From the sequence record NC_028894.1: a stretch of DNA of 64,000 bases; one strand, 5' to 3'. This DNA comes from Escherichia phage vB_EcoM_VR20. Positions 799-63,018 of the stretch are shown one piece after another. Made by a program: the position numbers and the translations under genes. The notes beneath the pieces are model-generated. The model was not told the DNA's origin. It saw only the letters and a list, made by a program, of their open reading frames with translations, and searched no databases. Each line of letters opens with the position of its first letter. The first letter of the stretch is position 1.

Positions 799-2082
799 AT
801 GCAAAAGATTAACGCACTAATTCACGAATCAACATTAACGGCGGCCAACCAGGTCGCCCGTCCTAATTTGCTTTCTTATACTCAGGCCACGAATAAACGA
901 ATTTTTAAAGCACTCGTGGCCGAACAGAAAACTACTCAGCCAGTTGCAGCGTTGTATGGTGTTCGTGTTCTGAACCCAGATGATAAAATGACATATCTTG
1001 GTGGAGCAACGTTTGCGGGTCAAATTGGTATGTTCGAGCGTAAGAATATTCCAGAATTTACAAACAAAGACGAAGCTTATGCAGTCGGCGATATGTTCCA
1101 GTTTGAAAGTGTTGTGTTCAAAGTTTTGGAAGCATCACCATTCGCCGGGACTCTTGAAACTGATTTGGGTGAAGTTATTTCTGAAGCCATTGCTGCTGGC
1201 CATATAAGAATGATGTCGGATGCGGCTTTCACTGATAAATTTGAACAAGGTCATCCTGAAATTGCTGAAGCCGGTTTCCGTATTGATAAATGGCAGACCG
1301 AAGTCAAATCCAGAAAGCTGAAAACTTCTTTAACGGTCGAGCTTGCACAGGACCTGGAAGCAAACGGTTTCGATGCAACAGACTTCATTGATAATATTCT
1401 CGGTATTCAGATGGCAGAGGAAATTAATAAGGATGTACTGCAATCCCTTATTACTGTCAGTTCTCGCTTCAAGGTGCAAGGTGTTTCTGAAAAAGGTGTA
1501 TTGAATCTAACTGACCCGAAATATGATAACGCTCAGGACCGTGCGCGAACCCTGTATTATTATATGTGTGAAATGAACTCCGCAGTTCAACGTCAGACTT
1601 CGTTTGCTGGTACATATGCAGTCGCTTCTTCCCGGTGTGCAGCTATTTTAGCAGCTTCTGGTTGGGTTGAGAAAAAGGAAGACCAGGATGAATTAGCCTA
1701 TGGCGTTCTGAAGAACGGTTTACCACTTTATGCAGATATGAATAGTCCATGTGATTATGTTATTGTTGGTGTAAATGCTGATATGGGTGAAGGTCAGACG
1801 GTCGCATCTTTGTATTATGCGCCTTATACGGAAGGACTTAGTGAAGTTGATGATGAGGGTGATACCTCGGTCGGGGAATTCAAGGTTATTGTTGACCCTG
1901 AAAGCTTGCAGCCTACTGTTGCGCTATTAGCTCGTTATGCATTGACAGCGAACCCTTATACGGTTGCGAAAGATGATAAAGAAGCTCGCATTATTGATGG
2001 TGCTGATATGGATAAGATGGCCAACCAAAGCCAATTGAGTTCTTATCTTGGTGTTAAACTTCCACCACTGGAAAAAGAATAA
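799..2082 (+). CDS. 24: Capsid vertex protein gp24
   Basis: 427 aa, same length as T4 gp24; ATG start; gp23-like fold paralog; followed by hairpin terminator. Confidence 0.88.
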   Translation: MQKINALIHESTLTAANQVARPNLLSYTQATNKRIFKALVAEQKTTQPVAALYGVRVLNPDDKMTYLGGATFAGQIGMFERKNIPEFTNKDEAYAVGDMFQFESVVFKVLEASPFAGTLETDLGEVISEAIAAGHIRMMSDAAFTDKFEQGHPEIAEAGFRIDKWQTEVKSRKLKTSLTVELAQDLEANGFDATDFIDNILGIQMAEEINKDVLQSLITVSSRFKVQGVSEKGVLNLTDPKYDNAQDRARTLYYYMCEMNSAVQRQTSFAGTYAVASSRCAAILAASGWVEKKEDQDELAYGVLKNGLPLYADMNSPCDYVIVGVNADMGEGQTVASLYYAPYTEGLSEVDDEGDTSVGEFKVIVDPESLQPTVALLARYALTANPYTVAKDDKEARIIDGADMDKMANQSQLSSYLGVKLPPLEKE

Positions 2083-2102
2083 GGGCCTTGCGGCCCTTTT
2101 TT
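2083..2102 (+). terminator. Hairpin gggcc-ttgc-ggccc plus T-run after gene 24
   Basis: GC stem followed by TTTTTT seen directly; between convergent genes 24 and rnlB. Confidence 0.6.
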
Positions 2103-3786: not shown

Positions 3787-3811
3787 AAAAACAAAGGGAC
3801 CCGAAGGTCCC
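3787..3811 (-). terminator. UUCG-tetraloop hairpin terminator downstream of hoc
   Basis: gggacc-cgaa-ggtccc with flanking A and T runs. Confidence 0.55.
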
Positions 3812-3818
3812 TTTTTAA

Positions 3819-5627: not shown

Positions 5628-5645
5628 GATGAACCTCGGTTAGTG

Positions 5646-5653
5646 TATAAATA
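5646..5653 (+). promoter_or_regulatory. T4-type late promoter TATAAATA upstream of uvsW
   Basis: Exact TATAAATA about 30 bp upstream of the uvsW ATG. Confidence 0.55.
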
Positions 5654-5681
5654 TAGATATATTTATTACCTTGGAATCATC

Positions 5682-7181
5682 ATGGATATTAAAATCAACT
5701 TTCTAAATTTTAGTCACGTGCATGTTGAATGTGAAGATGGAATCTTCTACGAACTCCGTGATTACTTCAGCTTCGAAGCTGAAAACTATCGCTTCAATCC
5801 AAAGTTCAAGCAGGGAGTTTGGGACGGACGAATCCGCCTCCTGGATTACAATCGTAAATTACCATACGGTTTGGTTAATCAAATTAAAAAGTTCGCTGAC
5901 CAGTTTGGTTATTCATTCTGGATTGACCCGCAAATCACCGAGAAAGAAGAAATCTCTCGCGAAGAATTCGACAAATGGGTCGAGTCAAAAGAAATCTATT
6001 CAGGCAATACCAAGATAACGCCCCATTGGTATCAATCTGACGCCGTATATGATGGTCTGGTCAACAGAAGAAAGATTCTGAACTTACCTACGTCTGCGGG
6101 TAAAAGCCTCATCCAGGCGCTTCTGGCGCGATATTATCTCGAGAACTATGAAGGCAAGGTTCTTATCCTTGTTCCTACAACTGCCCTTGTCGACCAGATG
6201 ATTAATGACTTTGTTGATTATCGGCTTTTCCCTCGTGCAGCTTGTCTGGGTATTCGTTCCGGGACTAAACGCGATTCTGATGCGATGATTTATGTATCGA
6301 CTTATCAGACGGCTGTAAAACAACCTAAAGAATGGTTTGAACAGTTTGGCCAGTTTATGAATGACGAATGCCACATGGCTACAGGTAAATCGATTTCGAC
6401 GGTTATCGAAGGCCTTACGAATTGCATGTTTAAATTTGGTTTGTCAGGTTCACTCCGTGATGGCAAAGCCAACCTTATGCAATATATGGGTCTGTTTGGT
6501 GATATCTTTAAACCAGTATCAACATCTAAATTAATGGAAGATGGCCAGGTTACTGACCTTAAAATAAATAGTATTTTCCTTCGTTACCCTGACGAATTCA
6601 CCGTTAAAATGAAAGGTAAAACTTATCAGGATGAAATCAAGGTAATTACAAAAGCTACACGCAGAAATAAATGGGTAACAAACCTTGCACTCAAGCTTTC
6701 TAAAAAAGATGAAAACGTCTTTTTGATGTTTAAGAATATCGAGCATGGTAAATCGATGTTTGAAATGATTAAAGAAGCTGGTCATGAGAAAGTGTATTAT
6801 GTTTCCGGGGAAGTTGATACCGAAACCCGTAATGCTCTGAAGGTCATGGCAGAGAATGGAAAGGGAATTATTGTTGTAGCTTCATATGGTGTATTCTCAA
6901 CGGGGATTTCCGTTAAAAACCTCCATCATATTATTTTCGCTCACCCGGTCAAGTCAAAGGTAATTGTACTCCAGACAATTGGCCGCGTGCTTCGAAAACA
7001 TGAATCCAAATCGACCGCAAACGTGTGGGACATTGTGGATGATATGGGGGTCAAACCCAAATCAGCAAACGCTAAAAAGAAATATGTTCATATTAACTTT
7101 GCGCTTAAACATGCACTAGAACGTATTCAGCGGTATGCAGACGAAAAATTCAATTATGTAATTAAACAGGTGGAAATATAA
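5682..7181 (+). CDS. uvsW: UvsW RNA-DNA and DNA-DNA helicase
   Basis: Starts MDIKINF..; Walker A TSAGKS; strong recalled identity to T4 UvsW. Track start at 5643 is a GTG. Confidence 0.9.
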   Translation: MDIKINFLNFSHVHVECEDGIFYELRDYFSFEAENYRFNPKFKQGVWDGRIRLLDYNRKLPYGLVNQIKKFADQFGYSFWIDPQITEKEEISREEFDKWVESKEIYSGNTKITPHWYQSDAVYDGLVNRRKILNLPTSAGKSLIQALLARYYLENYEGKVLILVPTTALVDQMINDFVDYRLFPRAACLGIRSGTKRDSDAMIYVSTYQTAVKQPKEWFEQFGQFMNDECHMATGKSISTVIEGLTNCMFKFGLSGSLRDGKANLMQYMGLFGDIFKPVSTSKLMEDGQVTDLKINSIFLRYPDEFTVKMKGKTYQDEIKVITKATRRNKWVTNLALKLSKKDENVFLMFKNIEHGKSMFEMIKEAGHEKVYYVSGEVDTETRNALKVMAENGKGIIVVASYGVFSTGISVKNLHHIIFAHPVKSKVIVLQTIGRVLRKHESKSTANVWDIVDDMGVKPKSANAKKKYVHINFALKHALERIQRYADEKFNYVIKQVEI

Positions 7182-7408
7182 TGAAATCCTTCGAAGAAAT
7201 TATGTACGAAGCATCAATTGAAGGCTTTATGGCTAAGATTGGTTCCTGTCAGACCATGGACGGTCTGAAGGAGTTGGAAGGCTATTATAAGAAACGCAGC
7301 AAAGAAGCTGAACTGAAAGATTCCGATGATATCAGTGTTCGCGATGCTCTTGCCGGTAAACGCGCCGAGCTTGAGGATATGGACGACGAAGAAGACGAAG
7401 ATTTCTAA
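7181..7408 (+). CDS. uvsW.1: UvsW.1
   Basis: 75 aa acidic protein overlapping the uvsW stop, as in T4. Confidence 0.7.
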   Translation: MKSFEEIMYEASIEGFMAKIGSCQTMDGLKELEGYYKKRSKEAELKDSDDISVRDALAGKRAELEDMDDEEDEDF

Positions 7409-9329: not shown

Positions 9330-10082
9330 ATGGCCAATATCGTAAGATGTGAAATGCCAGACGGAGTTCATCGTTTCAAACCGTTTACAGTCGCTGATTA
9401 CCGTGATTTACTGCTTGTGCGGAATGACATGAACAACAAACCCGTCGAAGAACAAAAACAATTATTAGACGAACTGTTGGAAGATTATTTTGGAGAGTAT
9501 CCGAAAGCATGGAGACCTTACATATTCCTGAAGGTATTCACTTCCTCTATCGGTAAGACAAAAGTCCCGGTAGCGTTCGAATGTCAAAAATGTAAAAAAA
9601 CAAAGCAGACTTTGTTTAACATGAGTCAAGGTCCATTGATAAATCCAACGATGGAAACTGCAGGGATAAAAATACAATTTAAGTTCCCTGAAATGGAATA
9701 TAAAGATAAGTCGGAGCTTGTTCTAAACACCATCCAGACTGTCGAAGACTCAGAACAAAAGTACAATTGGGAAGACCTTCCTGAAGAAACGAAGATGCAG
9801 GTTATTGATGCCATTGATATAGAGAGTCTCGAAGAGCTCCTTAAGAAAATGCATTCAGTTTATATTCCATTTACATATGGTTGCTGCGAAAAACACAAAA
9901 CCGAATATACAGACTTGATTGATGTCTTTAAGCTTATCCTTAACCCGGATGAAGTCTTTGTATTTTATCAAATTAACCACTTGCTGGTAAAGAACCAATA
10001 TACGCTCGATAGCATCATGCACATGATTCCCATCGAACGAGGTATTGCTTTATCGTTAGTTGAGAAGGACTTGAAAAAATGA
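9330..10082 (+). CDS. 51: Baseplate hub assembly catalyst gp51
   Basis: 250 aa (T4 249); position and order. Confidence 0.75.
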
Positions 10083-11248
10083 CAGCTAAATCTATGCAGC
10101 GTGAAGGCTTTCCTAATATCAGCATACGCCTTTACGAAGATTATGATGCCTGGCTCGAACACCGTTTTGTAGAACTGGCTGCAACATTTACAACCATGAC
10201 CATGCGTGATTCTCTTTACGGAAGAAACGAAGGCCTGTTGCAATTCTACGACACAAAGAACTTGCATACAAAAATGAACGGTGAACAAATTATACAAGTC
10301 TCCGTTAAGAATGCCAACTCAGACCGAACCCAATCCAGGATATACGGAAGTAAGCACTTTGCTGTTTCCGTGGATTCAAAGGGTGATAACATAATTACAA
10401 TTCAGCTGGCACCGATTCATGAAATTGAAGACCTGAAATTTAGTCGTATGTTTTATCCGAGTGTGCAAGAAACATTGGTCGAAATGACCGGGGTAATTTA
10501 TCAGGACAGACCTTTGCTTGCTCCTCCGATAAACGGTATAAACGTTTATGCTCCTAATGTTCCATGGTGTGATTCGATGAGCCAATACATGGAATTCATT
10601 AGGGAAGTTGGGCTTGCAGTTGAATCTGATAAATTTGTATTTGTATGGCAGGATATCGACGGCATAAGTATCCAGGATTATGAATGGTTAACTACACAAG
10701 AACCAATTAATTTTGTAGTAGGGGAACCTCGATTGGTTGGTCAGTTTGTACAAAACCTCGAGACTCCATTGGCATTCGATTTCGAATGGTTAACAAAGGC
10801 AAACCAACACACAAGAAAACCATACGAAAACGCAACCGTGTACGCACATTCATTCCTTGATAAGAACGCAACCAGAATAACTTTTGGGGAAGGACAAAAC
10901 AGCATTCTGGTATCTCGTTCCGGTGGCTATTCGGATTACACATATCGAAATGGTTTCGAGGAAGCACAACGATTAATAACCATGTCACAATATGACGGTT
11001 ATGCGCATTGCAAAACATACGGGAACTTTGAATTAACTCCGGGCGATAAGATAAATTTCTATGACCCGAAGAACCAATTCAAATATGATTTTTACGTAGA
11101 CGAAGTTATTCATGAAGTGAGTAACAATACATCAATTACAAACCTCTATATGTTTACCAATGGTAAGCCTATCGAAGTTGAAGAACCACCGAAGGTTAAA
11201 AATGAACTTAAAACTGATTCTGCCGACGAAGAAAATACAGCTGGGTGA
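10079..11248 (+). CDS. 27: Baseplate hub subunit gp27
   Basis: 389 aa (T4 391); ATGA overlap with gene 51. Confidence 0.8.
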
Positions 11249-11720
11249 TAAAGAGATTCACGTTCCCAAGCTTGGACTCAAGCATCACAATCTGATTAAA
11301 AACGAACCTAATCCTTATGTTGCATTAAGAAAGATTATGCAATCGATATTCCCTAATCTTACAGCAGCCGAATCCGACTTTGTATCTTTACATCTTCTGG
11401 AATTCAATGGTAAGCTAAAAGACAAACGCGAGATTAATGGATTTACATATAAGCTGGATGATGTTTATATCTGTCAGCGCCTTGAATTCTCTTATCAAGG
11501 AAAGACATTTAAATTCCGCTCCAATAAACCGTATGAAGAATTCGGACCAGTTGACAATCTCCTGGAGACCCTTTATCTCGGGGAAGATGTTCCAGACTTT
11601 CTGGATATGCCTGCTTTTGTTGCTAAGTGGGCAGACGATATCACAAGCACATTAGCAATCCCGGGTCCGAATGGTCCTGTTAAGGGGTTACTGAAAATAA
11701 TGGAACTCCTAAATGAATAA
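11202..11720 (+). CDS. 28: Baseplate hub distal subunit gp28
   Basis: Internal ATG with GAAGG Shine-Dalgarno gives 172 aa (T4 177); overlaps the end of gene 27. Confidence 0.7.
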
Positions 11721-13458
11721 GAACTCCGAACAAACGAGCTTCAGACGCGGTGGACCTAATAAAAAGCTTATCGAAGAATTAGCACCACAAAGGAGGGCGG
11801 AAGCCCTCTCTGCTGAACAGAATGATGAATTATCGAATCTGAATACAACTCTTACAAATACTCAAGCTGCAACCGAACTTGTGTCGGAAGCTATTGAGGA
11901 TAAGGGTAATCAGATTATTGAGAATATCCAGACCAACAATGGGGTCCTCCAGGATATCAGTGCGGGGGTCGAACTGACGGCTGAAGCCACCGAGAAGACT
12001 CAACAAGGGATTAAAAACCTCACGGATATTCTCTCGGATAAGCTCGACAAACTCAGCGCAATGATAAGCGGTAAAATAGGCGTCACGTCTCCTGTGGCTG
12101 GTTCTGAAAGCCTTAAACCTGTGGAGGACGCACTACCAGAGCCTGAAGAGAATAAGCCCACAGCGAGCGTTCCAGCGCTCATACCGCCAGAAGAACAAAA
12201 GCCCGACGCTGACTTCATTCCGGAACCAGAGCAACCAAAAACCGATGCAGAAGGTAAAGAGACTAATACCTGGTCACTTGGCGATAAGCTTGACACACTT
12301 TCGAAGATAACCGAAAAAGGATTTAAGGCATCGATTTCTGTAGCTGACCGAATCTCCGGGATGCTGTTCAAATATACAATTACGGCAGCAGCCGAAGCAG
12401 CCAAGCTTATTGGTGGATTATTGTTGTTAGTATTCGGTATCGATGCGATACGAGTTTACTTCCAATATTTCATGAAGCAATTCGAAAAAGGATGGGCCGA
12501 ATTTAATGACAAGTTCAAAGAATGGGGACCGTTGCTCGAAGGACTAATGACTTGGGCTAAGAACGCGCAAGCGATGTTTAGTGAAAAGAATTGGTTGGGA
12601 TTAGCTGAAGCTATTATCCGTGGGATGGTCAACTTAACGAAGAACATGGCTCAACTTCTTATGCTTGGTATTTCGAAACTGATTTCAGCTATCTTAAGCA
12701 AAATCCCTGGGATGGGCGATTTAGCAGATAATGTGGAAGCCTCAGCTTTGATGTCTTATCAGCAAAATACAGGGGCAACTCTGGATGATGAAGACCAAAC
12801 CAAGATAGCAAAATATCATGACAAACGTTCGGCCGAAGCAATGGAAGCTGCAGAGAAGATGAATAAGAAGTATAAGGATAAACCTGAACTAATTAATCAA
12901 GCCGAAAAATATGGTAACCTTACCAAGGAGCAAGCTGACCAGCTTCGCGCGGGTGGTATTGACACAAGCTTCAGAGACCTTCCAGAAGAAGAACGTCTGG
13001 ACTATTTCAAGAAGCGTGACAAAGCACAGGCTGATATTATTCGTTTGACCCAAACTGCGGATAACTTAATGAAGCCAGACGCAACCGATAAAAAGAATGC
13101 GATGGAAATGAGAGCTAACATTGAAAAACAATTAGCTGACCCAGCTATGGCAAAAGGTGGAGCTCCGAAAGACCTGAATATGCGCGCCCTGTTGGAAAAA
13201 CTTGATAAGTCTCTTGAGAAGTTCAAAGACGAACCGAAAGTTAAACCGCCGGATGTTAAGACTTCTCCGGATGCACAACAAGCTGCGAAGGTTGACGAAG
13301 GCATGAAGGCCAAAGAAAATAAATACAAGGATGCACCAGCTCAGGCACAAATTAACACGGTCAATAATATTCAGAAGACTTCCAGGACGCAATACAATAT
13401 GCCTCCTCAAAGTTCAACCCCTGCCCCTGGCATGAGACAGGCCACGAGAATTAACTAA
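11713..13458 (+). CDS. 29: Baseplate hub and tail length determinator gp29
   Basis: 581 aa (T4 590); position between 28 and 48. Confidence 0.8.
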   Translation: MNKNSEQTSFRRGGPNKKLIEELAPQRRAEALSAEQNDELSNLNTTLTNTQAATELVSEAIEDKGNQIIENIQTNNGVLQDISAGVELTAEATEKTQQGIKNLTDILSDKLDKLSAMISGKIGVTSPVAGSESLKPVEDALPEPEENKPTASVPALIPPEEQKPDADFIPEPEQPKTDAEGKETNTWSLGDKLDTLSKITEKGFKASISVADRISGMLFKYTITAAAEAAKLIGGLLLLVFGIDAIRVYFQYFMKQFEKGWAEFNDKFKEWGPLLEGLMTWAKNAQAMFSEKNWLGLAEAIIRGMVNLTKNMAQLLMLGISKLISAILSKIPGMGDLADNVEASALMSYQQNTGATLDDEDQTKIAKYHDKRSAEAMEAAEKMNKKYKDKPELINQAEKYGNLTKEQADQLRAGGIDTSFRDLPEEERLDYFKKRDKAQADIIRLTQTADNLMKPDATDKKNAMEMRANIEKQLADPAMAKGGAPKDLNMRALLEKLDKSLEKFKDEPKVKPPDVKTSPDAQQAAKVDEGMKAKENKYKDAPAQAQINTVNNIQKTSRTQYNMPPQSSTPAPGMRQATRIN

Positions 13459-13466
13459 GGAATAAC

Positions 13467-14561
13467 ATGAAAGTAAAAGAACTCGATATTGATATTGCGG
13501 GTTTATTTAACGGAGGTTCTAAGACCTCCGCTGGGCAGTCAAAAGCTGCCCAGACTCAAGCTACTATTGTGGCGCAATATCCAGCAGAACGAGCTTCCGG
13601 TAATGATTCTTCAGATGATATGCGAGTTAATGACCTTTATAAAAATGGTCTGTTATTCACGGCATACAATTTCAGTTCAAGAACATCTCCGGAATTACGC
13701 TCAGACAGGTCAAGCCAATTGACTTCATTAAAGAAAGTTTCCAATGGTGCTTCATTTAACCCGGTTAAAAGTTTAACATCTTTTGCTAAATCGAAATTAA
13801 CCGGTGCTGGGTCAACAGGTAAAAGTTTTGATTCAAACGCTGTCGCAAATATCCTGTTGCCTCGTTCGAAGTCTGATGTAGAATCCGTGTCGCATCGATT
13901 CAACGATGTTGGTGAGTCTCTTATTACGAAAGGCGGTGGCTCAGCTACTGGTATTCTTAGTAACATCGCATCGACCGCAGTTTTTGGTGCACTCGAATCA
14001 GTTACAAACGGTGTAATGGCCGACCATGGTGAACAGATTTACACAACGGCAAGAAGCATGTATGCTGGTCCAGATAACCGGACAAAAGTTTACACATGGG
14101 AAATGACTCCACGTTCGGCCCAGGACTTAATCCAGATAGTGAAGATATACGAGATTTTTAACTATTACTCCTATGGGGAAACCGGTAAAAGTTCGTTTGC
14201 TTCCGAGCTGAAAGAAAAAATCGATACATGGTATAAATCCACCTTCAAAAAAGAAGCAATCGATAACTTTGACGGCAAGTTGCTCGGTGAAGAGATAACA
14301 AGCTTCCTAACGAACGTTCTGGTGGTCTCTAACCCTACTATCTGGTATATCCGCAACTTCGGCGATACAAGCTCGTACGATGGTCGTGGGGAGCTATTTG
14401 GGCCGTGTCAGATTCAGAGCATAAGATTCGATAAATCTCCGGATGGTCATTTCGGTGGATTAGCTATTGCTCCTAACCTGCCATCGACTTTTGTACTTGA
14501 AATCACTTTCCGTGAAATCATTACGCTTAACCGTGGCTCATTATATGCGGAAGGTTTCTAA
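13467..14561 (+). CDS. 48: Baseplate tail tube cap gp48
   Basis: 364 aa, same as T4 gp48. Confidence 0.85.
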   Translation: MKVKELDIDIAGLFNGGSKTSAGQSKAAQTQATIVAQYPAERASGNDSSDDMRVNDLYKNGLLFTAYNFSSRTSPELRSDRSSQLTSLKKVSNGASFNPVKSLTSFAKSKLTGAGSTGKSFDSNAVANILLPRSKSDVESVSHRFNDVGESLITKGGGSATGILSNIASTAVFGALESVTNGVMADHGEQIYTTARSMYAGPDNRTKVYTWEMTPRSAQDLIQIVKIYEIFNYYSYGETGKSSFASELKEKIDTWYKSTFKKEAIDNFDGKLLGEEITSFLTNVLVVSNPTIWYIRNFGDTSSYDGRGELFGPCQIQSIRFDKSPDGHFGGLAIAPNLPSTFVLEITFREIITLNRGSLYAEGF

Positions 14562-15520
14562 TGTTTACTTTACAAGAATTTCAAACACAAGCGATTAATA
14601 TCGACTTGCAGAGGAATAACCTTTTTAGTGTGGTCTTCGCGACCGCACCTTCCTCTAAATCTCAGAATCTTCTGGACCAGTTTGGTGGCGCATTATTCAG
14701 TAACCTTCCTGTTAACTCAGATTGGTTCGGATTAACACAAGGTGACTTAACTCAGGGGATAACAACTCTTGTTACTGCCGGGACACAAAAGCTTATTCGC
14801 AAATCAGGGATAAGCAAATATCTTATTGGGGCAATGAGTAACCGTGTTGTGCAATCATTATTAGGTGAATTTGAGGTTGGTACTTACCTGCTTGATTTCT
14901 TTAATATGGCTTATCCAACGGCTGGTCTATTAGTTCACTCTGTTAAGCTTCCGGATAACACATTGAACTACGAAATGGACCTTAACCATAATGCGCCAAA
15001 TATCAAGATAACAGGGAGAGAATATTCTCCGTTGGTATTGAGCTTTAGAATGGATTCAGAGGCAGGGAACTTCAGAGCATTTAACGATTGGGTTAACTCT
15101 GTACAGGACCCAGTTACCCAGCTAAGGGCTTTGCCTGAAGACGTTGAAGCTGATATTCAGGTTAACCTTCATTCGCGTAATGGGTTACCGCATACGGTTG
15201 TTATGTTAACTGGTTGTGTTCCTGTAAGTGTATCAGCGCCTGAATTGAGTTATGAAGGTGATAATCAGATAGCTACATTTGATGTGACTTTTGCTTATCG
15301 CGTTATGTCAACTGGTGCGGTGGGAAGAGCTGCAGCATTGGAATGGTTGGAAGATAAGGTTATTAAAGGTGTATCTGGTATTAGTTCAGATAACAACTTG
15401 AACGCAGAAGTTGCCAAATTGAGTCGCTTGTCTGGTGCTCAATCTGGATTAACAAGTCTATACAATACGTTTACTGGTTCTGGGAGAACAGTCTCTGGTG
15501 GAAGTCAACGTATATTATAA
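14561..15520 (+). CDS. 54: Baseplate tail tube initiator gp54
   Basis: 319 aa (T4 320); paralogous to gp48 and gp19. Confidence 0.85.
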   Translation: MFTLQEFQTQAINIDLQRNNLFSVVFATAPSSKSQNLLDQFGGALFSNLPVNSDWFGLTQGDLTQGITTLVTAGTQKLIRKSGISKYLIGAMSNRVVQSLLGEFEVGTYLLDFFNMAYPTAGLLVHSVKLPDNTLNYEMDLNHNAPNIKITGREYSPLVLSFRMDSEAGNFRAFNDWVNSVQDPVTQLRALPEDVEADIQVNLHSRNGLPHTVVMLTGCVPVSVSAPELSYEGDNQIATFDVTFAYRVMSTGAVGRAAALEWLEDKVIKGVSGISSDNNLNAEVAKLSRLSGAQSGLTSLYNTFTGSGRTVSGGSQRIL

Positions 15521-15549
15521 AAAGAAAGGGACCCGAAGGTCCCTTTTTT
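15520..15549. terminator. Bidirectional hairpin terminator between gene 54 and the alt block
   Basis: aaaagaaa-gggacccgaaggtccc-tttttt; A-run and T-run flank a perfect stem. Confidence 0.6.
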
Positions 15550-15838
15550 ATTTGCGGAATGAAATGAAACCTGCTGCAGTCATGACAGCTTCTTTCTTAA
15601 CAAATACTGTAATTGCAATTGGTGCTTCAGATTCAAGTTGTCCAGTTACTACACCATTAAAAATATTTTCTGTTTGTTCAGAATTTACAAAGTTTTCAAC
15701 AGGGCGAAGGTCAAACTTCTTATCTTCGCCAAACACGCGCCGCAGTTCATTACCCACTGCGCTGTCAAACTCTTCTGAAGCCGGGATAACATTCTCAACT
15801 ACCAGTTCCTGACCATTAAAGCGAAAAGATGATTTCAT
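15548..15838 (-). CDS. Hypothetical protein (T4 alt.-1 region)
   Basis: Internal ATG with GAGGAAAACAAA Shine-Dalgarno; early promoter GTTTACA-17-TACAAT upstream. Confidence 0.5.
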   Translation of the reverse strand: MKSSFRFNGQELVVENVIPASEEFDSAVGNELRRVFGEDKKFDLRPVENFVNSEQTENIFNGVVTGQLESEAPIAITVFVKKEAVMTAAGFISFRK

Positions 15839-15901
15839 TTTGTTTTCCTCATGTGCAATTGATATGAACATTGTATCGCACTTCCTTGTGCTTGTAAACC
15901 C

Positions 15902-17987: not shown

Positions 17988-17995
17988 TATTTATA
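17988..17995 (-). promoter_or_regulatory. Late promoter TATAAATA upstream of alt
   Basis: Minus strand AGTATAAATACAT about 25 bp upstream of the alt ATG. Confidence 0.45.
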
Positions 17996-17996: not shown

Positions 17997-18015
17997 TAAA
18001 AAAGGGCCGAAGCCC
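17997..18015 (-). terminator. UUCG hairpin terminator downstream of gene 30
   Basis: A-run, gggc-cgaa-gccc, then tttt. Confidence 0.55.
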
Positions 18016-18020
18016 TTTTG

Positions 18021-19553
18021 TTATTTTAATCCAGTCTTTGACCAGTCGCCAAATACATCTTCGAATGTGTCTGCATGGTCTTTATCGAAACGGAACCCTT
18101 TGATAATCGGCAGGAACAATGCAACCGTATTATCTTTACGAGTCTCGGAAGTCAACCAACCATTACATTCACAGTCGGCAATCATTCCAACCAATTCACC
18201 TTTACGGGCTTTAACCATCAAGGCTTCACGGTCCATTTCATGACGCTCCTCAATCGGAATAGTAACCCATTTTTTGGTTTTCTTATCTTTAACTTGAGTT
18301 GTGTCTTTAAAACCAGAACCACAGTTATTTGTAATCTTACCACAAGAAGAACGAAGCACAACACCACCAATCTTATTCGGGTCTTTATCGTGCTCGTAAT
18401 ATCCAATGATTTCCATTGCAATGTCAATTACTTCTTTGAACTTGTACAAGTTCTTTGAGCGCTTGTTTTCCCAAATCGATGCCATGTTCTTAAGGATAAT
18501 ACCTTCAAGACCTTCATCCACATATTTCTTATAGATAACCTTCGCTTCATCGAGATTGTTAACAACATGGTTTTCAATCAGAATCATGCGGTCAAAACCA
18601 TGCAGCACCACGTTATCTGCAATCATCTTTTCCAGAACAGCAAAACGCACATCGTATTTCAACGGATTGAGAATCTTAACATCAGAATAGACTTCAATCA
18701 GTGGAACATAATCCCAAACCTGGAATTTCATACAAGCAGCTTCTGTTGCCGAAATAGTTCCTTTCAATGATTTGTTTGCCAGACCATTTGAAAAGGTTCT
18801 TGATTCCGCAGTTTCTTGTGCAGGGGCAATCTCATTTGAATCGTCAAAAAGGAAGCCCAAACCGTCATTCTGGGGAGCTACTTTCTGTTCATGGTATACT
18901 AACTCACCGTCAATCAAAACGCCCTCAGGATGTCTCTCACGCGCTTCACGAGTAGCTTCAATCAATTCCTTTTTAAGGAGGTCAAGCTTGAGGTATTCGT
19001 TGCCAGCTCGGGATAACAATCGAACATCATCCAACTCATCGCCACGAACTTCTGCAAAACACCGAGCGCCGTCGGCTTTCAATTGTGCAAAGGCCGGGAA
19101 CTTAATGTTCTTGGCAATACCGGCTTCATCATAGGAAGAAGCGAGCATCTGCGGTTGTTCTGGAATTAAACCTTTCCAAACCTTATTTGCAATTGATACG
19201 GATGCCCCGCATTCCAGGTCACGCATCATCACACGGCGCAGGACTTCAACATCTGCTTTTTTACCATCGGCAATATAGCCAGATAATTCCTCGATTGCAG
19301 CATTACCTGTTAATTTACGAGAGGCCAATGTGAATTCGATAAAGTCAAGCATATCATCGATATTCAGCATACCAAAGCTTTGAGTCGTTGTTCCAGGTTT
19401 TGGCCATTTCTTGATATAGAACTGGATGCCTTTGGAATATGTCAAACGATACACACGTTTGAGGGTTTCATTGTCAGAATACGATTCCAGAATAGCTTGT
19501 TTCTCTTTAGTAGAATCGGTTGCAGCAATTTCATTTAAAATATCTAAAATCAT
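18021..19553 (-). CDS. 30: ATP-dependent DNA ligase gp30
   Basis: Adenylation motif KADGARC; strong recalled T4 ligase identity; ATG with AGAGGTGA Shine-Dalgarno. Confidence 0.9.
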   Translation of the reverse strand: MILDILNEIAATDSTKEKQAILESYSDNETLKRVYRLTYSKGIQFYIKKWPKPGTTTQSFGMLNIDDMLDFIEFTLASRKLTGNAAIEELSGYIADGKKADVEVLRRVMMRDLECGASVSIANKVWKGLIPEQPQMLASSYDEAGIAKNIKFPAFAQLKADGARCFAEVRGDELDDVRLLSRAGNEYLKLDLLKKELIEATREARERHPEGVLIDGELVYHEQKVAPQNDGLGFLFDDSNEIAPAQETAESRTFSNGLANKSLKGTISATEAACMKFQVWDYVPLIEVYSDVKILNPLKYDVRFAVLEKMIADNVVLHGFDRMILIENHVVNNLDEAKVIYKKYVDEGLEGIILKNMASIWENKRSKNLYKFKEVIDIAMEIIGYYEHDKDPNKIGGVVLRSSCGKITNNCGSGFKDTTQVKDKKTKKWVTIPIEERHEMDREALMVKARKGELVGMIADCECNGWLTSETRKDNTVALFLPIIKGFRFDKDHADTFEDVFGDWSKTGLK

Positions 19554-19562
19554 AATCACCTC

Positions 19563-21808: not shown

Positions 21809-21844
21809 AATATTTTCCTCAAGGGGCTTTCGCCCCATTTAAGA

Positions 21845-22210
21845 TTAGATATCAAATTCATTAAGAACTACATCAAAGATTGCTTCCAGGTGTTCAGGTT
21901 TTGCTTTGTTACCCAGGATATGACGAATCCAAGTTTTAACCAACAGCTTGCGATTAACACCATTCCAGCAAGGATGAGTACCTAAATCACGCTCGCGGAA
22001 ATCATCATCTAAAGCAATTTTAAAGGTTGAACCAGTCATAGTGATTGAAAGAGTGATACCATTTTCAAATCGCATATAAACGTAGTTAGGAGTCATGTAC
22101 TGTTCAATTTCGCACACTGAACCATTTTTATGTTTCCACAGGCAAATAACTTCAGAAGAACCTGGGATGCAGTTAGAAACATATTTGCGTTCAAAGTTGA
22201 TGTAGTTCAT
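21845..22210 (-). CDS. Hypothetical protein
   Basis: 121 aa; ATG preceded by the conserved GGAGAATAAA leader and promoter/stem-loop cassette. Confidence 0.55.
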   Translation of the reverse strand: MNYINFERKYVSNCIPGSSEVICLWKHKNGSVCEIEQYMTPNYVYMRFENGITLSITMTGSTFKIALDDDFRERDLGTHPCWNGVNRKLLVKTWIRHILGNKAKPEHLEAIFDVVLNEFDI

Positions 22211-22281
22211 TTTATTCTCCAGTTGTTTTCATTTGTTGGTACAGGTCTATAATATCATAACCTGTACCAAAGTAAACTGTT
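22211..22281 (-). promoter_or_regulatory. Early promoter with stem-loop (PeSL-like cassette)
   Basis: Minus strand GTTTAC-17-TATTAT; 8-bp stem ggtacagg/cctgtacc encloses the -10. Confidence 0.45.
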
Positions 22282-22650
22282 TTATGCGACTTTAATCCAA
22301 TTATCTAAATTTAATTCACCCTTAGCTTTCATTTTTTCAATCAAATCATCAGCAGTGGTGCGACCATTTTGATACCATGTAACATCTTCAGAATAACCAG
22401 TTTCTTCATCTTCATAGGTCTTACAACGAATCTTACCAAGAATCAAAGTTTTCAGTTCGTAGGTATCACCAGTAAAAAAGTTTGTTACCATAATTTTCCA
22501 GGAGAAGTCATCAGAAGGACCTTCTGGAGTCATGCAAGAAACGAATTCAAATTGTTCTTTATACAAGTGCCATTGCATTTCTTTAGTTTCAATGGCTTTG
22601 TAGCCGTCGTGGTCTTTACCTTTGATGTATGAGTTAAGATTGATTTTCAT
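22282..22650 (-). CDS. Hypothetical protein
   Basis: 122 aa; ATG preceded by the conserved leader repeat. Confidence 0.55.
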   Translation of the reverse strand: MKINLNSYIKGKDHDGYKAIETKEMQWHLYKEQFEFVSCMTPEGPSDDFSWKIMVTNFFTGDTYELKTLILGKIRCKTYEDEETGYSEDVTWYQNGRTTADDLIEKMKAKGELNLDNWIKVA

Positions 22651-22734
22651 TTTATTCTCCAGTGTTTTATTGTGTAACTCAGTATGGAATCATTATGCAC
22701 TGGACCAACCCTGTTGTAAACCTTTTATGGAAAT
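22651..22734 (-). promoter_or_regulatory. Early promoter plus conserved leader repeat
   Basis: TTTACA-17-CATAAT, then leader TCCATACTGAGTTACAC..CACTGGAGAATAAAATG shared with 38309, 57450 and 61474. Confidence 0.5.
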
Positions 22735-22758
22735 AAAAAAGGGACTCCGAAGAGTCCC
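22735..22758 (-). terminator. UUCG hairpin terminator
   Basis: A-run then gggactc-cgaa-gagtccc directly after the stop of the 53-aa ORF. Confidence 0.55.
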
Positions 22759-22763
22759 TGAAC

Positions 22764-31936: not shown

Positions 31937-31955
31937 GCAAAAAGGGCCGAAGCCC
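31937..31955 (-). terminator. UUCG hairpin between nrdB and denA
   Basis: A-run then gggc-cgaa-gccc. Confidence 0.5.
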
Positions 31956-31960
31956 TTTCC

Positions 31961-39803: not shown

Positions 39804-39826
39804 TAAAAAAGGGACCCGAAGGTCCC
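39804..39826 (-). terminator. UUCG hairpin terminator downstream of gene 32
   Basis: A-run then gggacc-cgaa-ggtccc. Confidence 0.6.
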
Positions 39827-46969: not shown

Positions 46970-48106
46970 ATGGAAAGATTTATGGCTGAATTTGGACAGG
47001 GATATGTCCATGTTCCCGTGCTTTCTGAAAATAACGCAGTAAGATATAAATTGTCGATTGCTGGGACTTGTACCAAATCGCCAAACTATCCCTACGTTAA
47101 GTTTCAAGATGAGGCCTTCGGGCCTCAGACATTCCAGAATGGATTAAACCTTATTGAGATTGACCCAGTAACAAATACAATCACTGCAACCAAAAACTAT
47201 GGTTTCACAAAAGACTATGATGTCATTTCACAGGCCTTTGTGACTTATATTAATTCCATCCCAGCGGGTAGGATTGTTTGTTTGATATCGCAGGGAAAAT
47301 TGAATGCTTCCCAAACTTTAATTGATTGGTTCAGAACACATGGCTCGACTGCATTTCCGGATAAGTGGTTGATTGACCAAGTTGATACTTCGTATTCGGC
47401 TTTTTATATCTCTGGTCGAAATGCAATCGTTAAAGAGCATGTGCTATATAATGACGGGGTAACTGTTGAGGATGTATTGACTCCATTGGAAATGGTGTAC
47501 GACGACTTCGCTGATGTGGGTGGCACAGGATTCCCTCTGCGCATCGTGGAAGACGGAAACACATATTATAGTAATAGTACACAAGAAATAAAACGCTTCC
47601 CCACAGACTCCCCCATCACTCCTGCGGCCGATTATAATATGGCCCCTGGTGATACTTTTTATCTGAAGTTTCAGCTGACATATGACCAGGCACTTAAAGA
47701 CCTTGGAACAACTCAGATGTCTGTTCGATTCTTTAGTGGTCAGACGATGATTCAGTCAAACGATTATGATATCCCATCTACAGGTCAAGCAAGTCCACCG
47801 GCTGGCGCATGGATGACGTTTGAACGTTATGTAGTTGTTCCACCGAATGCTGATGGATTTACATTGTATGCAAGGAAGACCGTTGCTGCTGGACAAGGTG
47901 GAGTAAGGAATATTTTCTTTACAGAAATCGCGCGACAAGAAACACAAGCTAAATCTGCAGAAATCGGTGTCAACGGCATAAGAATGGTTGTAGCTGGAGA
48001 ACCGGGAAATCTTGGTAATGTCATTGCACAATTGAATGATAAAAATGCAACTAAAGCAAGTCAATCTGGATTTGTATTTGCTGCAGAATTCCGTGAAAAA
48101 GAATAA
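46970..48106 (+). CDS. 35: Long tail fibre hinge gp35
   Basis: 378 aa (T4 372); position. Confidence 0.85.
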   Translation: MERFMAEFGQGYVHVPVLSENNAVRYKLSIAGTCTKSPNYPYVKFQDEAFGPQTFQNGLNLIEIDPVTNTITATKNYGFTKDYDVISQAFVTYINSIPAGRIVCLISQGKLNASQTLIDWFRTHGSTAFPDKWLIDQVDTSYSAFYISGRNAIVKEHVLYNDGVTVEDVLTPLEMVYDDFADVGGTGFPLRIVEDGNTYYSNSTQEIKRFPTDSPITPAADYNMAPGDTFYLKFQLTYDQALKDLGTTQMSVRFFSGQTMIQSNDYDIPSTGQASPPAGAWMTFERYVVVPPNADGFTLYARKTVAAGQGGVRNIFFTEIARQETQAKSAEIGVNGIRMVVAGEPGNLGNVIAQLNDKNATKASQSGFVFAAEFREKE

Positions 48107-48126
48107 GGACCTTCGGGTCCTTTTTT
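48107..48126 (+). terminator. UUCG hairpin terminator after gene 35
   Basis: ggacc-ttcg-ggtcc followed by TTTTTT. Confidence 0.6.
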
Positions 48127-52799: not shown

Positions 52800-52802
52800 C
52801 AA

Positions 52803-52818
52803 GAGGGCTTCGGCCCTC
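52803..52818 (+). other. UUCG stem-loop between genes 37 and 38
   Basis: gagggc-ttcg-gccctc without a strong T-run. Confidence 0.4.
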
Positions 52819-52830
52819 TAAGGATTTTTA

Positions 52831-57541: not shown

Positions 57542-57563
57542 AAAAAAGGACCCCGAAGGGTCC
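57542..57563 (-). terminator. UUCG hairpin terminator
   Basis: A-run then ggaccc-cgaa-gggtcc. Confidence 0.55.
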
Positions 57564-57661
57564 TAGTCTTTATCTATCTTATTGCCAATAAACATACCAA
57601 CAATCACACCCGCGATTGCCGCGAAAACACAAAGTAATGCAAACTCCACTCCAAAACTCAT
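57563..57661 (-). CDS. Hydrophobic micro-ORF, 32 aa
   Basis: MSFGVEFALLCVFAAIAGVIVGMFIGNKIDKD; ATG overlaps the gene 52 stop; below the track cutoff. Confidence 0.35.
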   Translation of the reverse strand: MSFGVEFALLCVFAAIAGVIVGMFIGNKIDKD

Positions 57662-59347: not shown

Positions 59348-59436
59348 ATTTTCCTCAAGGGCGTCCAAAGACGCCAGTTAATTTCAGATTATGACGATGC
59401 CATTGCATCACATGTTCGTTATGGAAATTACTCATA

Positions 59437-63004: not shown

Positions 63005-63018
63005 GGGGCCGAAGCCCC
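63005..63018 (-). other. UUCG stem-loop downstream of rIIB
   Basis: ggggc-cgaa-gcccc without a T-run. Confidence 0.4.

What the first reader, a model, noticed from the sequence alone, without database searches (positions are those of the whole stretch)
15528..15543. Strand-matched UUCG-tetraloop hairpins at operon ends
At least eleven near-identical hairpins end operons (2083, 3796, 15528, 18004, 22741, 31944, 39811, 48107, 52803, 57548, 63005), and the loop reads UUCG, or UUGC at 2083, on the strand of the upstream gene in every case. Some lack a U-run and may act as RNA-stabilising structures rather than terminators.
Basis: seen in the sequence. Interest (0 to 1): 0.3.

Follow-up and report, generated by a model that had tools for sequence, protein, structure and literature searches.

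The report
T4-type UUCG-tetraloop mRNA hairpins and terminators
The window comes from a T4-like coliphage, and the repeated hairpins are the C(UUCG)G mRNA hairpins first described in phage T4 in 1988: most are ordinary transcription terminators and a few sit between or inside genes, so the pattern is real but already known.

Summary
All eleven hairpins are present at the stated coordinates. I found a twelfth at 47110-47127, inside gene 35. The window is a T4-like phage of the genus Gaprivervirus, about 98% identical to Escherichia phages P479 and DK-13. Perfect hairpins with a TTCG or CGAA loop number 11, against 0.57 expected from shuffles. Every one reads UUCG on the coding strand. The same holds for 13/13 in T4, 10/10 in Dhakavirus IME341 and 9/9 in DK-13. 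Orthologous gene junctions in these phages carry a hairpin at the same place, with different stems (compensatory changes) and mostly the same loop. Eight of the twelve are canonical intrinsic terminators: a GC-rich stem followed by a U-tract on the sense strand. Two of these are bidirectional at convergent junctions, and six are followed directly by an early or late promoter. Three lie between cistrons within operons (nrdB/denA, 37/38, rIIB/next gene), two with no U-tract and one (nrdB/denA) with a short one. They resemble known T4 translation or stability hairpins, including the gene 38 hairpin. This is the phenomenon of Tuerk et al. 1988, so it is already known. The only mildly new item is the gene 35 intragenic hairpin, which is kept by compensatory non-synonymous changes.

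The parts
2081..2098 (+). Hairpin AAGGGCC UUGC GGCCCUU followed by UUUUUUAUU, after gp24 (799-2082). It is convergent with rnlB (2101-3108, minus strand). The minus strand reads loop GCAA (fits GNRA) with tail UUAUUCUUUUUC, so it is a putative bidirectional terminator.
   Evidence: Orthologous junctions carry UUCG in DK-13, UUAC in IME341 and UUUC in T4.
3793..3814 (-). Terminator after hoc (3819-4952): AAAGGGACC UUCG GGUCCCUUU followed by GUUUUUAU. An early-type promoter follows (GTTTACA, 17 nt, TAAGAT).
   Evidence: The T4 hoc junction has AAGGGGC UUCG GCCCCUU.
15525..15546 (-). Bidirectional terminator between convergent gp54 (14561-15520, plus strand) and the alt.-3-like gene (15548-15871, minus strand). 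The 22-mer is identical to the one at 3793. It reads UUCG on the minus strand and has U-tracts on both strands. This is the flagged site.
   Evidence: The T4 junction has AUGGGGACC UUUC on the minus strand and GAAA on the plus strand.
18000..18019 (-). Terminator after DNA ligase gp30 (18021-19559): AAAAGGGC UUCG GCCCUUUU followed by UU. The late promoter TATAAATA (17988-17995, minus strand) follows directly and precedes alt.
   Evidence: The T4 and IME341 orthologues after alt.1 also carry UUCG.
22740..22759 (-). Terminator after the 30.9-like small ORF: AGGGACUC UUCG GAGUCCCU followed by UUUUUAUUU. An early promoter follows (GTTTACA, 17 nt, CATAAT).
   Evidence: The orthologue in Tequatrovirus SA20RB is annotated as a rho-independent terminator followed by a T4 early promoter. 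T4 has AGGACUCC UUCG GGAGUCCU.
31941..31958 (-). Intercistronic hairpin between the nrdB stop and the denA AUG: UAAGG AAAGGGC UUCG GCCCUUU UUGCCC AUG. The U-run is short. The SD-like AAGGA lies 5' of the stem and the AUG lies 6 nt 3' of it, a split-RBS layout.
   Evidence: IME341 has GGGGC UUCG GCCCC and T4 has GGAGUGGGCC GCAA GGCCCAUUUU at the same junction. The denA start is taken from the DK-13 annotation.
39811..39826 (-). Gene 32 terminator: GGGACC UUCG GGUCCC followed by UUUUUUAUUUU. The shared early-promoter cassette follows (TGTACA, 17 nt, CATAAT).
   Evidence: Three different stems carry UUCG among gp32 relatives. T4 has GGGGACC CUAGA GGUCCCC followed by U6.
47110..47127 (+). Intragenic hairpin UGAGGCC UUCG GGCCUCA, 140 nt into gene 35 (46970-48106).
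   Evidence: All cells are paired, and 3 of 7 pairs show compensatory changes that alter the protein (EAFGP, EDFGP, GNFGS, GDFGP).
48105..48122 (+). Terminator after gene 35: AAGGACC UUCG GGUCCUU followed by UUUUCAU. The late promoter TATAAATA (48130-48137) for gene 36 follows.
   Evidence: Six of 8 stem pairs covary across 10 distinct sequences, and 8 of those 10 (15 of the 18 loci read) carry the UUCG loop.
52802..52819 (+). Intercistronic hairpin between the gene 37 stop and the gene 38 start: UAACA AGAGGGC UUCG GCCCUCU AAGGAUUUUUA AUG. It has no U-tract, and the SD lies just 3' of the stem.
   Evidence: T4 has UAAGGAGAGGGGC UUCG GCCCCUUCUAAAU AUG, the documented gene 38 split-RBS hairpin.
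57547..57564 (-). Terminator after a small ORF downstream of gp52 (57658-59037): AGGACCC UUCG GGGUCCU followed by UUUUUAUUUU. The shared early-promoter cassette follows.
   Evidence: IME341 has AAGGAACC UUCG GGUUCCUU about 100 nt after gp52.
63005..63018 (-). Intercistronic hairpin between the rIIB stop (63026) and the next gene (62795-62992): UAAUC GGGGC UUCG GCCCC UAAUGAGGCUUU AUG. It has no U-tract.
   Evidence: T4 has UAA GGGC UUCG GCCC UUAACUAAGGAAAAUU AUG, and IME341 has GGAGGC UUCG GCCUCC UAAGAGGAAAUU AUG.
21823..21836 (-). Loop-variant member of the intercistronic class: GGGGC GAAA GCCCC UUGAGGAAAAUAUU AUG.
   Evidence: The orthologues carry UUCG in IME341 and in SA20RB.
59360..59375 (-). 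Loop-variant member of the intercistronic class: GGCGUC UUUG GACGCC CUUGAGGAAAAU AUG.
   Evidence: T4 has GGCGUC UUCG GACGCC and IME341 has GCGUC UUCG GACGC; these were matched by near-identical stem sequence and by position in the gene map, and no alignment was made.

Best explanation
These are the C(UUCG)G tetraloop hairpins typical of T4-type phage messenger RNAs. They act as RNA, not DNA. The exceptional stability and fast folding of a UUCG loop closed by a C-G pair exist only in the strand that reads UUCG. Selection therefore fixes the loop in the orientation of the transcript that runs through it, and this produces the perfect strand match.

The twelve hairpins in the window fall into three working classes.

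(A) Eight are the hairpin part of canonical intrinsic (rho-independent) terminators: 2081, 3793, 15525, 18000, 22740, 39811, 48105 and 57547. Each has a GC-rich stem followed at once by a U-tract on the sense strand. Each lies just after a stop codon. Six are followed directly by the promoter of the next unit: the late promoter TATAAATA after 18000 and 48105, and early promoters after 3793, 22740, 39811 and 57547. The other two, at convergent junctions, have U-tracts on both strands and should stop transcription from either side.

(B) Three lie between cistrons of one operon, two with no U-tract and one with only a short one: 31941, 52802 and 63005. Loop variants of this class are at 21823 and 59360. 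They sit between a stop codon and the next ribosome binding site, or between the SD and the AUG at denA. They most likely act after transcription, by setting the SD-to-AUG geometry, by keeping the SD free of long-range pairing, or by blocking exonucleases.

(C) One lies inside gene 35 and its role is unknown.

Shown here: the sequences, the strand bias, the excess over chance, the conservation of position, the compensatory stem changes and the adjacent promoters. Inferred: termination, stabilisation and translational effects.
For: Identity of the phage:
- The window is 98% identical to Gaprivervirus phages, and its gene order matches T4.

Excess and strand bias:
- 11 hairpins were observed against 0.57 expected.
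- Every hairpin with this loop is in the sense orientation: 11/11 in the window, 13/13 in T4, 10/10 in IME341 and 9/9 in DK-13.

Conservation:
- The same junctions carry a hairpin in DK-13, IME341 and T4, with different stems.
- In the gene 35/36 terminator, 6 of 8 pairs show changes on both sides and 95% of cells are paired. No shuffle or slid control reaches the observed covariation score.
- Gene 32 terminators have three different stems, all with a UUCG loop and a U-run.

Terminator anatomy:
- Eight hairpins have 7-8 U in the first 9 nt of the sense-strand tail.
- A generic terminator scan finds the hairpins in the first 20 kb.
- Promoters follow immediately.
- The orthologue of 22740 is annotated as a rho-independent terminator plus early promoter in phage SA20RB.

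Literature:
- (X)nCUUCGG(Y)n hairpins are common in intergenic regions of phages and especially abundant in T4 (PMC8948821, citing Tuerk et al. 1988).
- The T4 gene 38 hairpin reduces the SD-AUG spacing from 22 nt to 5 nt (PMC3014915).
Against: - No transcript ends or half-lives were available, so no function is demonstrated for this phage.
- The loop is not obligatory. Orthologous sites carry UUGC, UUAC, UUUC, UUAU, UUUG, GCAA, GAAA or CUAGA, so UUCG is preferred rather than required.
- ViennaRNA gives only 0.9 kcal/mol between the UUCG and CGAA readings. The energy argument therefore rests on published measurements, not on my calculation.
- Four of the twelve hairpins do not fit the terminator model.
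Confidence: 0.85

Rival explanations
1. The hairpins mainly protect RNA rather than terminate transcription. As 3' barriers they would block PNPase and RNase II. As 5' stem-loops they would slow RNase E-dependent decay. Either way they set different half-lives for segments of polycistronic transcripts.
For: - Three hairpins have no U-tract and one has a short tract, yet they are conserved in T4 and IME341.
- PMC8948821, citing Gorski 1985 and Loayza 1991, states that a 5' CUUCGG hairpin stabilises the T4 gene 32 transcript.
- A terminator hairpin also protects the 3' end it creates, so the two roles can coexist.
Against: - Eight of the twelve have complete terminator anatomy, and six of these are followed by the promoter of the next unit (the other two are at convergent junctions).
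- For the hairpins without a U-run, their place directly next to the SD or AUG suits a translational role equally well.
- No decay data are available.
Confidence: 0.3
2. The intercistronic hairpins without a full U-tract (31941, 52802, 63005, 21823, 59360) control translation initiation of the downstream gene. They would either bring a distant SD close to the AUG (a split RBS, as in T4 genes 38 and 25), or lock the neighbouring sequence into a local hairpin so that the adjacent SD stays single-stranded.
For: - At 31941 the SD-like AAGGA lies 5' of the stem and the AUG lies 6 nt 3' of it. T4 and IME341 have the same layout.
- The T4 orthologue of 52802 is the classic gene 38 case.
- At 63005, 21823, 59360 and their orthologues the stem is followed within 2-5 nt by GAGG and then an AUG.
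Against: - In the window's gene 38 junction the SD (AAGGA) lies 3' of the hairpin at normal spacing, so the split-RBS mechanism does not apply there.
- No reporter or toeprint data are available.
Confidence: 0.35
3. The palindromes act on DNA. They could be cruciforms, protein-binding sites, or conserved linker sequences for recombination, as proposed for the promoter-early stem-loop (PeSL) cassettes of T4-type phages. The RNA hairpin would then be secondary.
For: - Three terminators (22740, 39811, 57547) are followed by an almost identical early promoter and 5' UTR of about 70 nt. This resembles the PeSL cassettes that mediate shuffling in RB49 and phi1 (PMC2839356, PMC4122927).
- The same 22-mer hairpin occurs at 3793, at 15525 and at the DK-13 gp24 junction. 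The window's gp24-junction hairpin equals the IME341 hoc-junction hairpin.
Against: - A perfect palindrome looks the same on both DNA strands except for its loop, yet the loop is in the sense orientation in 43 of 43 cases. That can only be selected through the transcript.
- Stems change by compensatory substitution.
- The one indel against DK-13 that I examined next to a hairpin (21897-22679) joins inside the 5' UTR and a coding region, not between two cassettes.
Confidence: 0.07
4. The pattern is chance or a by-product of base composition.
For: - The hexamers CTTCGG and CCGAAG occur 19 and 21 times in the window, mostly outside hairpins.
Against: - 11 hairpins against 0.57 expected, with a maximum of 4 in 300 shuffles.
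- The strand bias has p of about 0.001.
- Position is conserved and stems covary across genera.
Confidence: 0.01

Closest known systems
CUUCGG hairpins of bacteriophage T4 mRNAs (Tuerk et al. 1988, PNAS 85:1364; read here only through citing papers PMC4371310 and PMC8948821)
   Same: - The loop is UUCG closed by a C-G pair on a short GC-rich stem.
- The hairpins are mostly intergenic and on the transcribed strand.
- They occur in a T4-type phage.
- Individual sites are orthologous to T4 sites: after hoc, alt.1/gene 30, 30.9, gene 35, gene 37/38 and rIIB.
   Different: Nothing essential. The host genome is a Gaprivervirus rather than T4. Some junctions carry UUCG here but another loop in T4 (gene 32, nrdB/denA, gp24, gp54), and the reverse also occurs.
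Intrinsic (rho-independent) terminators of E. coli RNA polymerase
   Same: - A GC-rich hairpin is followed at once by a U-rich tract.
- It lies after a stop codon at the end of a transcription unit.
- This applies to eight of the twelve hairpins. An orthologue is annotated as such by TransTermHP and WebGeSTer in phage SA20RB.
   Different: Four hairpins lack an adequate U-tract. Termination was not measured.
Split-RBS hairpins of T4 genes 38 and 25 (Nivinskas/Malys; reviewed in PMC3014915)
   Same: - 52802 lies at the gene 37/38 junction, like the T4 gene 38 hairpin, and has the same loop.
- 31941 has the SD-hairpin-AUG order.
   Different: In the window's gene 38 junction the SD lies after the hairpin. 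The window's gene 38 is also the T2-type adhesin (262 aa), not the T4-type gene.
PeSL (promoter-early stem-loop) cassettes of T4-type phages (Arbiol 2010, Comeau 2014)
   Same: These are composite terminator plus early-promoter modules, repeated with high sequence similarity in regions of small accessory genes (22740, 39811, 57547).
   Different: - Here the UUCG stem-loop precedes the promoter. In RB49 and phi1 the stem-loop usually lies between or over the -35 and -10 boxes.
- The window does have that second type, but with other loops (28798, 59924, 39034, 30366).
- No recombination role was shown.

Membership tests
T4-type C(UUCG)G mRNA hairpins (Tuerk et al. 1988) | Tetraloop UUCG closed by a C-G base pair on a Watson-Crick stem | tested here: met
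   11 of 12 hairpins. The hairpin at 2081 has UUGC, which reads GCAA on the other strand.
T4-type C(UUCG)G mRNA hairpins (Tuerk et al. 1988) | UUCG is read on the transcribed (sense) strand | tested here: met
   11/11 in the window; 13/13 in T4, 10/10 in IME341 and 9/9 in DK-13.
T4-type C(UUCG)G mRNA hairpins (Tuerk et al. 1988) | Predominantly intercistronic location in a T4-type genome | tested here: met
   11 of 12 lie between ORFs. The genome is a Gaprivervirus of the Tevenvirinae.
T4-type C(UUCG)G mRNA hairpins (Tuerk et al. 1988) | Extra thermodynamic stability of the RNA, and reverse-transcriptase stops | not testable with these tools
   Only nearest-neighbour predictions are available: -9.6 to -14.2 kcal/mol, and pairing probability of at least 0.99 in context.
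Intrinsic terminator | GC-rich hairpin immediately followed by a U-tract of about 7-9 nt on the transcript | tested here: met
   Met for 2081, 3793, 15525, 18000, 22740, 39811, 48105 and 57547, each with 7-8 U in the first 9 nt. Not met for 47110, 52802 and 63005 (2-4 U). Borderline for 31941 (U5).
Intrinsic terminator | Transcript 3' ends map to the U-tract, and read-through falls | not testable with these tools
   No RNA data are available. Indirect support only: promoters directly downstream and the terminator annotation of an orthologue.
Split-RBS translation-enhancing hairpin (T4 genes 38 and 25) | The SD lies 5' of the hairpin and the AUG a few nt 3' of it, so that folding restores a functional spacing | tested here: inconclusive
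   31941 has this layout: AAGGA, then an 18-nt hairpin, then 6 nt, then the AUG. 52802 does not: its SD AAGGA lies 3' of the stem. The T4 orthologue of 52802 does have it.
PeSL cassette | [quoted passage not shown] | tested here: met
   22740, 39811 and 57547 are each followed by (T/G)TTACA or TGTACA, then 17 nt, then CATAAT, then a shared 5' UTR. The 16-mer TGCATAATGATTCCAT occurs three times exactly and twice nearly, against 1.26 expected.
PeSL cassette | Mediates insertion, deletion or mini-circle formation by recombination between cassettes | tested here: not met
   The one indel against DK-13 next to a hairpin (21897-22679) does not join two cassettes. This is a single case, so the test is weak.
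Any curated Rfam family | Match at or above the family's gathering score | tested here: not met
   No matches in the whole window. Rfam does not curate generic terminators.

The most novel reading that the evidence does not exclude
The intragenic C(UUCG)G hairpin 140 nt into gene 35 (47110-47127) may be a selected RNA element that overrides protein sequence. Three stem pairs changed by compensatory substitutions that alter the protein. Other T-even lineages carry a different strong hairpin about 90 nt into the same gene. It might uncouple expression of gene 35 from gene 34, for example as an exonuclease barrier that leaves a stable gene 34 message, or as an attenuator. That would fit the tail fibre, which by textbook knowledge contains one gp35 per three gp34.
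Probability: 0.15. Interest if true: 0.35.

Novelty: already known. Interest (0 to 1): 0.12.

Why it matters
It matters little as a discovery. C(UUCG)G hairpins were first recognised in T4 mRNAs, and their use in terminators and translation initiation regions of T-even phages is established. The practical value is for annotation. The hairpins mark eight likely transcription-unit boundaries, two of them bidirectional. They also mark several post-transcriptional control points in a Gaprivervirus genome where such features are not annotated. The 43 of 43 sense orientation across four phages illustrates cleanly that loop sequence alone can show which strand of a palindrome is under selection.

Tried and rejected
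- Rfam scan of the whole window: no family matched.
- The primary paper (Tuerk 1988, PMC279771) and the T4 genome review (Miller 2003, PMC150520) are not held in the library. The precedent is therefore cited through PMC4371310 and PMC8948821.
- A search for T4 Term-seq or 3'-end mapping papers found nothing usable.
- ViennaRNA energies for sense against antisense differ by only 0.9 kcal/mol, so I did not use them as evidence for the strand preference.
- The search for related loci with single proteins (gp36, gp32) reached only 16 and 13 loci. This was enough to test covariation at two sites but not for a wide census.
- I tested whether an indel against DK-13 next to the 22740 hairpin arose by recombination between promoter/terminator cassettes. 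The junction lies in the 5' UTR and inside gene 30.7, so it did not.
- I considered that UUGC at 2081 is really a GNRA loop (GCAA) for the minus-strand gene. This is supported by T4 (UUUC/GAAA) and IME341 (UUAC/GUAA) at the same convergent junction. It is weakened because IME341 has UUGC in the sense orientation after hoc at a non-convergent junction.
- The T4-type hairpin in gene 35 is not at the orthologous codons (offset 89 nt against 140 nt), so it was not counted as conservation of the window's hairpin.

Full report
**What the window is.** The 64-kb window (40.5% G+C) is 97-98% identical over the flagged region to Escherichia phages P479, TH41 and DK-13. DK-13 is classified in Straboviridae, Tevenvirinae, Gaprivervirus. 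Gene order follows T4: gp24, rnlB, hoc, inh, uvsW, uvsY, 25-26, 51-27-28-29-48-54, alt, 30, rIII, 31, cd, pseT, alc, rnlA, denA, nrdB, nrdA, td, frd, 32, 59, 33, dsbA, rnh, 34-35-36-37-38, t, asiA, motA, 52, rIIB. The plus-strand blocks are 1-2082, 5643-7408, 9330-15520 and 43062-54310. The rest is transcribed on the minus strand.

**Check of the observation.**
- All eleven hairpins are present.
- Perfect stems of 5-9 bp enclose CGAA on the plus strand at 3793, 15525, 18000, 22740, 31941, 39811, 57547 and 63005. They enclose TTCG at 48105 and 52802, and TTGC at 2081.
- A twelfth hairpin, TGAGGCC TTCG GGCCTCA at 47110-47127, lies inside gene 35 and was not listed.
- Dinucleotide-preserving shuffles give a mean of 0.57 such hairpins and at most 4, against 11 observed.
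- Of the 44 strong perfect hairpins in the window (stem at least 5 bp, at least 4 G-C pairs, loop 3-8 nt), 11 have this loop.
- Each hairpin reads UUCG on the strand of the genes around it. The two-sided p is 0.002 for 10 of 10 and 0.001 for 11 of 11.
- All fold with closing-pair probability of at least 0.99 within 40 nt of flanking sequence on each side.

- Only 3793 and 15525 are identical.
- 15525 and 2081 lie at convergent junctions. At 15525 the loop is UUCG for the minus-strand gene and CGAA for gp54. At 2081 the minus strand reads GCAA.

**U-tracts.** Read on the sense strand, eight hairpins have 7-8 U in the first 9 nt after the G-C core: 2081, 3793, 15525, 18000, 22740, 39811, 48105 and 57547. 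The two at convergent junctions have U-rich tails on both strands. Hairpin 31941 has U5, followed by GCCC and the denA AUG. Hairpins 47110, 52802 and 63005 have none. Several sites that seem to lack a T-run on the plus strand (22741, 39811, 57548) have an A-run upstream, which is a U6 tract on their own strand.

**What follows the hairpins.**
- After 18000 (minus strand) and 48105 (plus strand) the late-promoter octamer TATAAATA follows within 9 nt, ahead of alt and gene 36 respectively.
- After 3793, 22740, 39811 and 57547 comes an early-type promoter: GTTTACA or TGTACA, 17 nt, then CATAAT or TAAGAT.
- The last three share about 70 nt of promoter and 5' UTR. The 16-mer TGCATAATGATTCCAT occurs three times exactly, against 1.26 matches expected even when three mismatches are allowed.
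- The eight U-tract hairpins therefore sit exactly where one transcription unit ends, and at six of them the next unit begins directly downstream; the other two are convergent junctions.

**The hairpins without a full U-tract.**
- 52802 lies between the gene 37 stop and the gene 38 start: UAACA-hairpin-AAGGAUUUUUA-AUG.
- 63005 lies between the rIIB stop and the next gene: UAAUC-hairpin-UAAUGAGGCUUU-AUG.
- 31941 lies between the nrdB stop and the denA start: UAAGG-hairpin-UUGCCC-AUG.
- Two further hairpins have the same 'stop, hairpin, GAGG, AUG' layout but other loops: 21823 (GAAA) and 59360 (UUUG).

**Comparison with relatives.** I read the syntenic regions of T4 (KJ477684, 66 kb), Dhakavirus IME341 (MH051917, 66 kb) and DK-13 (50 kb).
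- Every perfect hairpin with a TTCG or CGAA loop in them is in the sense orientation: 13/13, 10/10 and 9/9 (using the strand blocks).
- I located each junction by the C-terminus of the upstream protein. The relatives carry a hairpin at the same place, with a different stem and usually the same loop:

| Junction | Window | IME341 | T4 |
|---|---|---|---|
| after hoc | AAAGGGACC UUCG | AAGGGCC UUGC | AAGGGGC UUCG |
| after gene 32 | GGGGACC UUCG | GGGAAGAC UUCG | GGGGACC CUAGA |
| after nrdB | AAAGGGC UUCG | GGGGC UUCG | GUGGGCC GCAA |
| after gene 35 | AAGGACC UUCG | AAGGGACC UUAU | GAGGGAGCC UUCG |
| after gene 37 | AGAGGGC UUCG | AGGGCC UUCG | GAGGGGC UUCG |
| after rIIB | GGGGC UUCG | GGAGGC UUCG | UAAGGGC UUCG |

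- DK-13 has AGGACUC UUCG after gene 35.
- For the gene 35/36 terminator, 18 loci were read: 16 IMG/VR loci, the window and DK-13. Fifteen of them carry UUCG. Collapsed to 10 distinct sequences, 8 carry UUCG; 95% of cells pair and 6 of 8 pairs show changes on both sides. The covariation score is 0.60, against 0.26 in shuffles (0 of 500 reach it) and at most 0.17 when the partners are slid.
- Gene 32 terminators in 13 loci show three unrelated stems with a UUCG loop and a U-run. A more distant lineage has a long AT-rich hairpin instead.
- In the T4-genus phage SA20RB the orthologue of 22740 (AGGACUCC UUCG GGAGUCCU followed by U6) is annotated as a rho-independent terminator followed by a T4 early promoter.

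**Mechanism.** A perfect palindrome is identical on the two DNA strands except for its loop. The 43 of 43 sense orientation can therefore only be selected through the transcript.
- The literature supplies the reason. The C(UUCG)G hairpin, first isolated from T4 mRNA, is far more stable than expected and folds autonomously (PMC4371310). Such hairpins are common in intergenic regions of phages and especially abundant in T4 (PMC8948821, citing Tuerk et al. 1988).
- For the eight class A sites the best-supported role is intrinsic termination by host RNA polymerase. The general definition is a hairpin followed by a U-rich tract (PMC2988021). A by-product is a nuclease-resistant 3' end.
- For the intercistronic sites, the T4 orthologue of 52802 is the gene 38 hairpin that shortens the SD-AUG spacing from 22 nt to 5 nt.
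- The window's denA junction has that SD-hairpin-AUG order. Its gene 38 junction does not, because the SD follows the hairpin.
- For 52802, 63005, 21823 and 59360 the hairpin immediately precedes the SD. Presentation of the SD and RNA protection are both plausible, and I cannot separate them.
- The loop is preferred, not required. UUGC, UUAC, UUUC, UUAU, UUUG, GCAA, GAAA and CUAGA replace it at orthologous sites. This argues for selection on stability rather than for a loop-specific binding protein.

**The intragenic hairpin.** Hairpin 47110 covers codons 47-53 of gene 35.
- In the Gaprivervirus, the Dhakavirus and a third lineage (L009-L013) the stem reads UGAGGCC, UGAGGAC, UGGGAAC or UGGGGAC.
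- Pairing is 100%, and 3 of 7 pairs changed on both sides.
- These changes alter the protein: EAFGP, EDFGP, GNFGS, GDFGP.
- T4-type phages, L014 and L015 lack it. They have another strong hairpin about 90 nt into the gene instead.
- Only six distinct sequences are available, so the evidence is suggestive. The function is unknown.

**Known or new.** This is the phenomenon described for T4 in 1988, at sites that are largely orthologous to T4 sites. The terminator-plus-early-promoter modules resemble the PeSL cassettes described for RB49, phi1 and other T4-like phages (PMC2839356, PMC4122927). No Rfam family matches. The novelty class is 'already known', and interest is low.

Noticed in passing
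window 47110-47127 (+), inside gene 35 (46970-48106): A C(UUCG)G hairpin 140 nt into the gene 35 coding sequence. It is conserved in three T-even lineages with three compensatory stem changes that alter the protein. Other lineages have a different strong hairpin about 90 nt into the gene.
   Followed up: partly
window 46988-47015 (+): A second long hairpin starts 18 nt after the gene 35 AUG: GAAUUUGGACA GGGAUA UGUCCAUGUUC, with one U-U mismatch. It is present in all gp36-anchored loci examined. The protein is also conserved here (MAEFGQGYVQ), so RNA-level selection cannot be separated from protein-level selection.
   Followed up: no
window minus strand: 22684-22699, 39753-39768, 57491-57506 (exact); 61502-61517 (1 mismatch); 30343-30358 (2 mismatches): A repeated early-promoter cassette: TGTACA or GTTTACA, 17 nt, CATAAT, then a shared 5' UTR GAUUCCAUACUGAGUUACAC. 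Three copies directly follow UUCG terminators. This resembles PeSL cassettes.
   Followed up: partly
window 28798-28821, 59924-59947, 39034-39055 and 30366-30385 (all minus strand): Early promoters with a hexamer displayed in a hairpin loop. The -10 sits in the loop in UGGGAGCA GAGUAUAA UGCUCCCA and UGGGGUCA GAGUAUAA UGACCCCA (the stems covary) and in GGGAACAU GAUAAU AUGUUCCC. The -35 TGTACA sits in the loop of AAGGGG UGUACAAG CCCCUU. This is the RB49-type PeSL layout.
   Followed up: partly
window 3793-3814 and 15525-15546; L001 1478-1499; window 2081-2098 against IME341: The same 22-nt hairpin AAAGGGACCUUCGGGUCCCUUU occurs at two non-homologous junctions in the window and at the gp24 junction of DK-13. 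The window's gp24-junction hairpin (AAGGGCC UUGC GGCCCUU) is identical to the hoc-junction hairpin of IME341. This could reflect convergence in a small sequence space or exchange between sites.
   Followed up: no
window 21897-22679: DK-13 lacks this 780-bp stretch, which holds gene 30.8 and most of 30.7. Its deletion junction lies in the 5' UTR downstream of the 22740 terminator and promoter, and near the 3' end of 30.7. It does not lie between two cassettes.
   Followed up: yes
window 1-2082 and 46617-49010: Mosaicism. The window has two adjacent ORFs (1-798, cut by the window start, and 799-2082) where IME341 has two adjacent genes annotated gp24; the first was not compared with gp24. The C-terminus of the 799-2082 gp24 is 95% identical to IME341 but only 61% to DK-13. 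The gene 35/36 tail-fibre region is only 67% identical to DK-13, although the flanks are 95-97% identical.
   Followed up: no
L003 11822-11839 (T4, in uvsY.-1) and L001 7710-7727 (DK-13): Another intragenic UUCG hairpin in relatives, with a covarying stem: CAGGAUA UUCG UAUCCUG in T4 and GCAGAUA UUCG UAUCUGC in DK-13. BLAST finds no match for this stretch of DK-13 in the window.
   Followed up: partly
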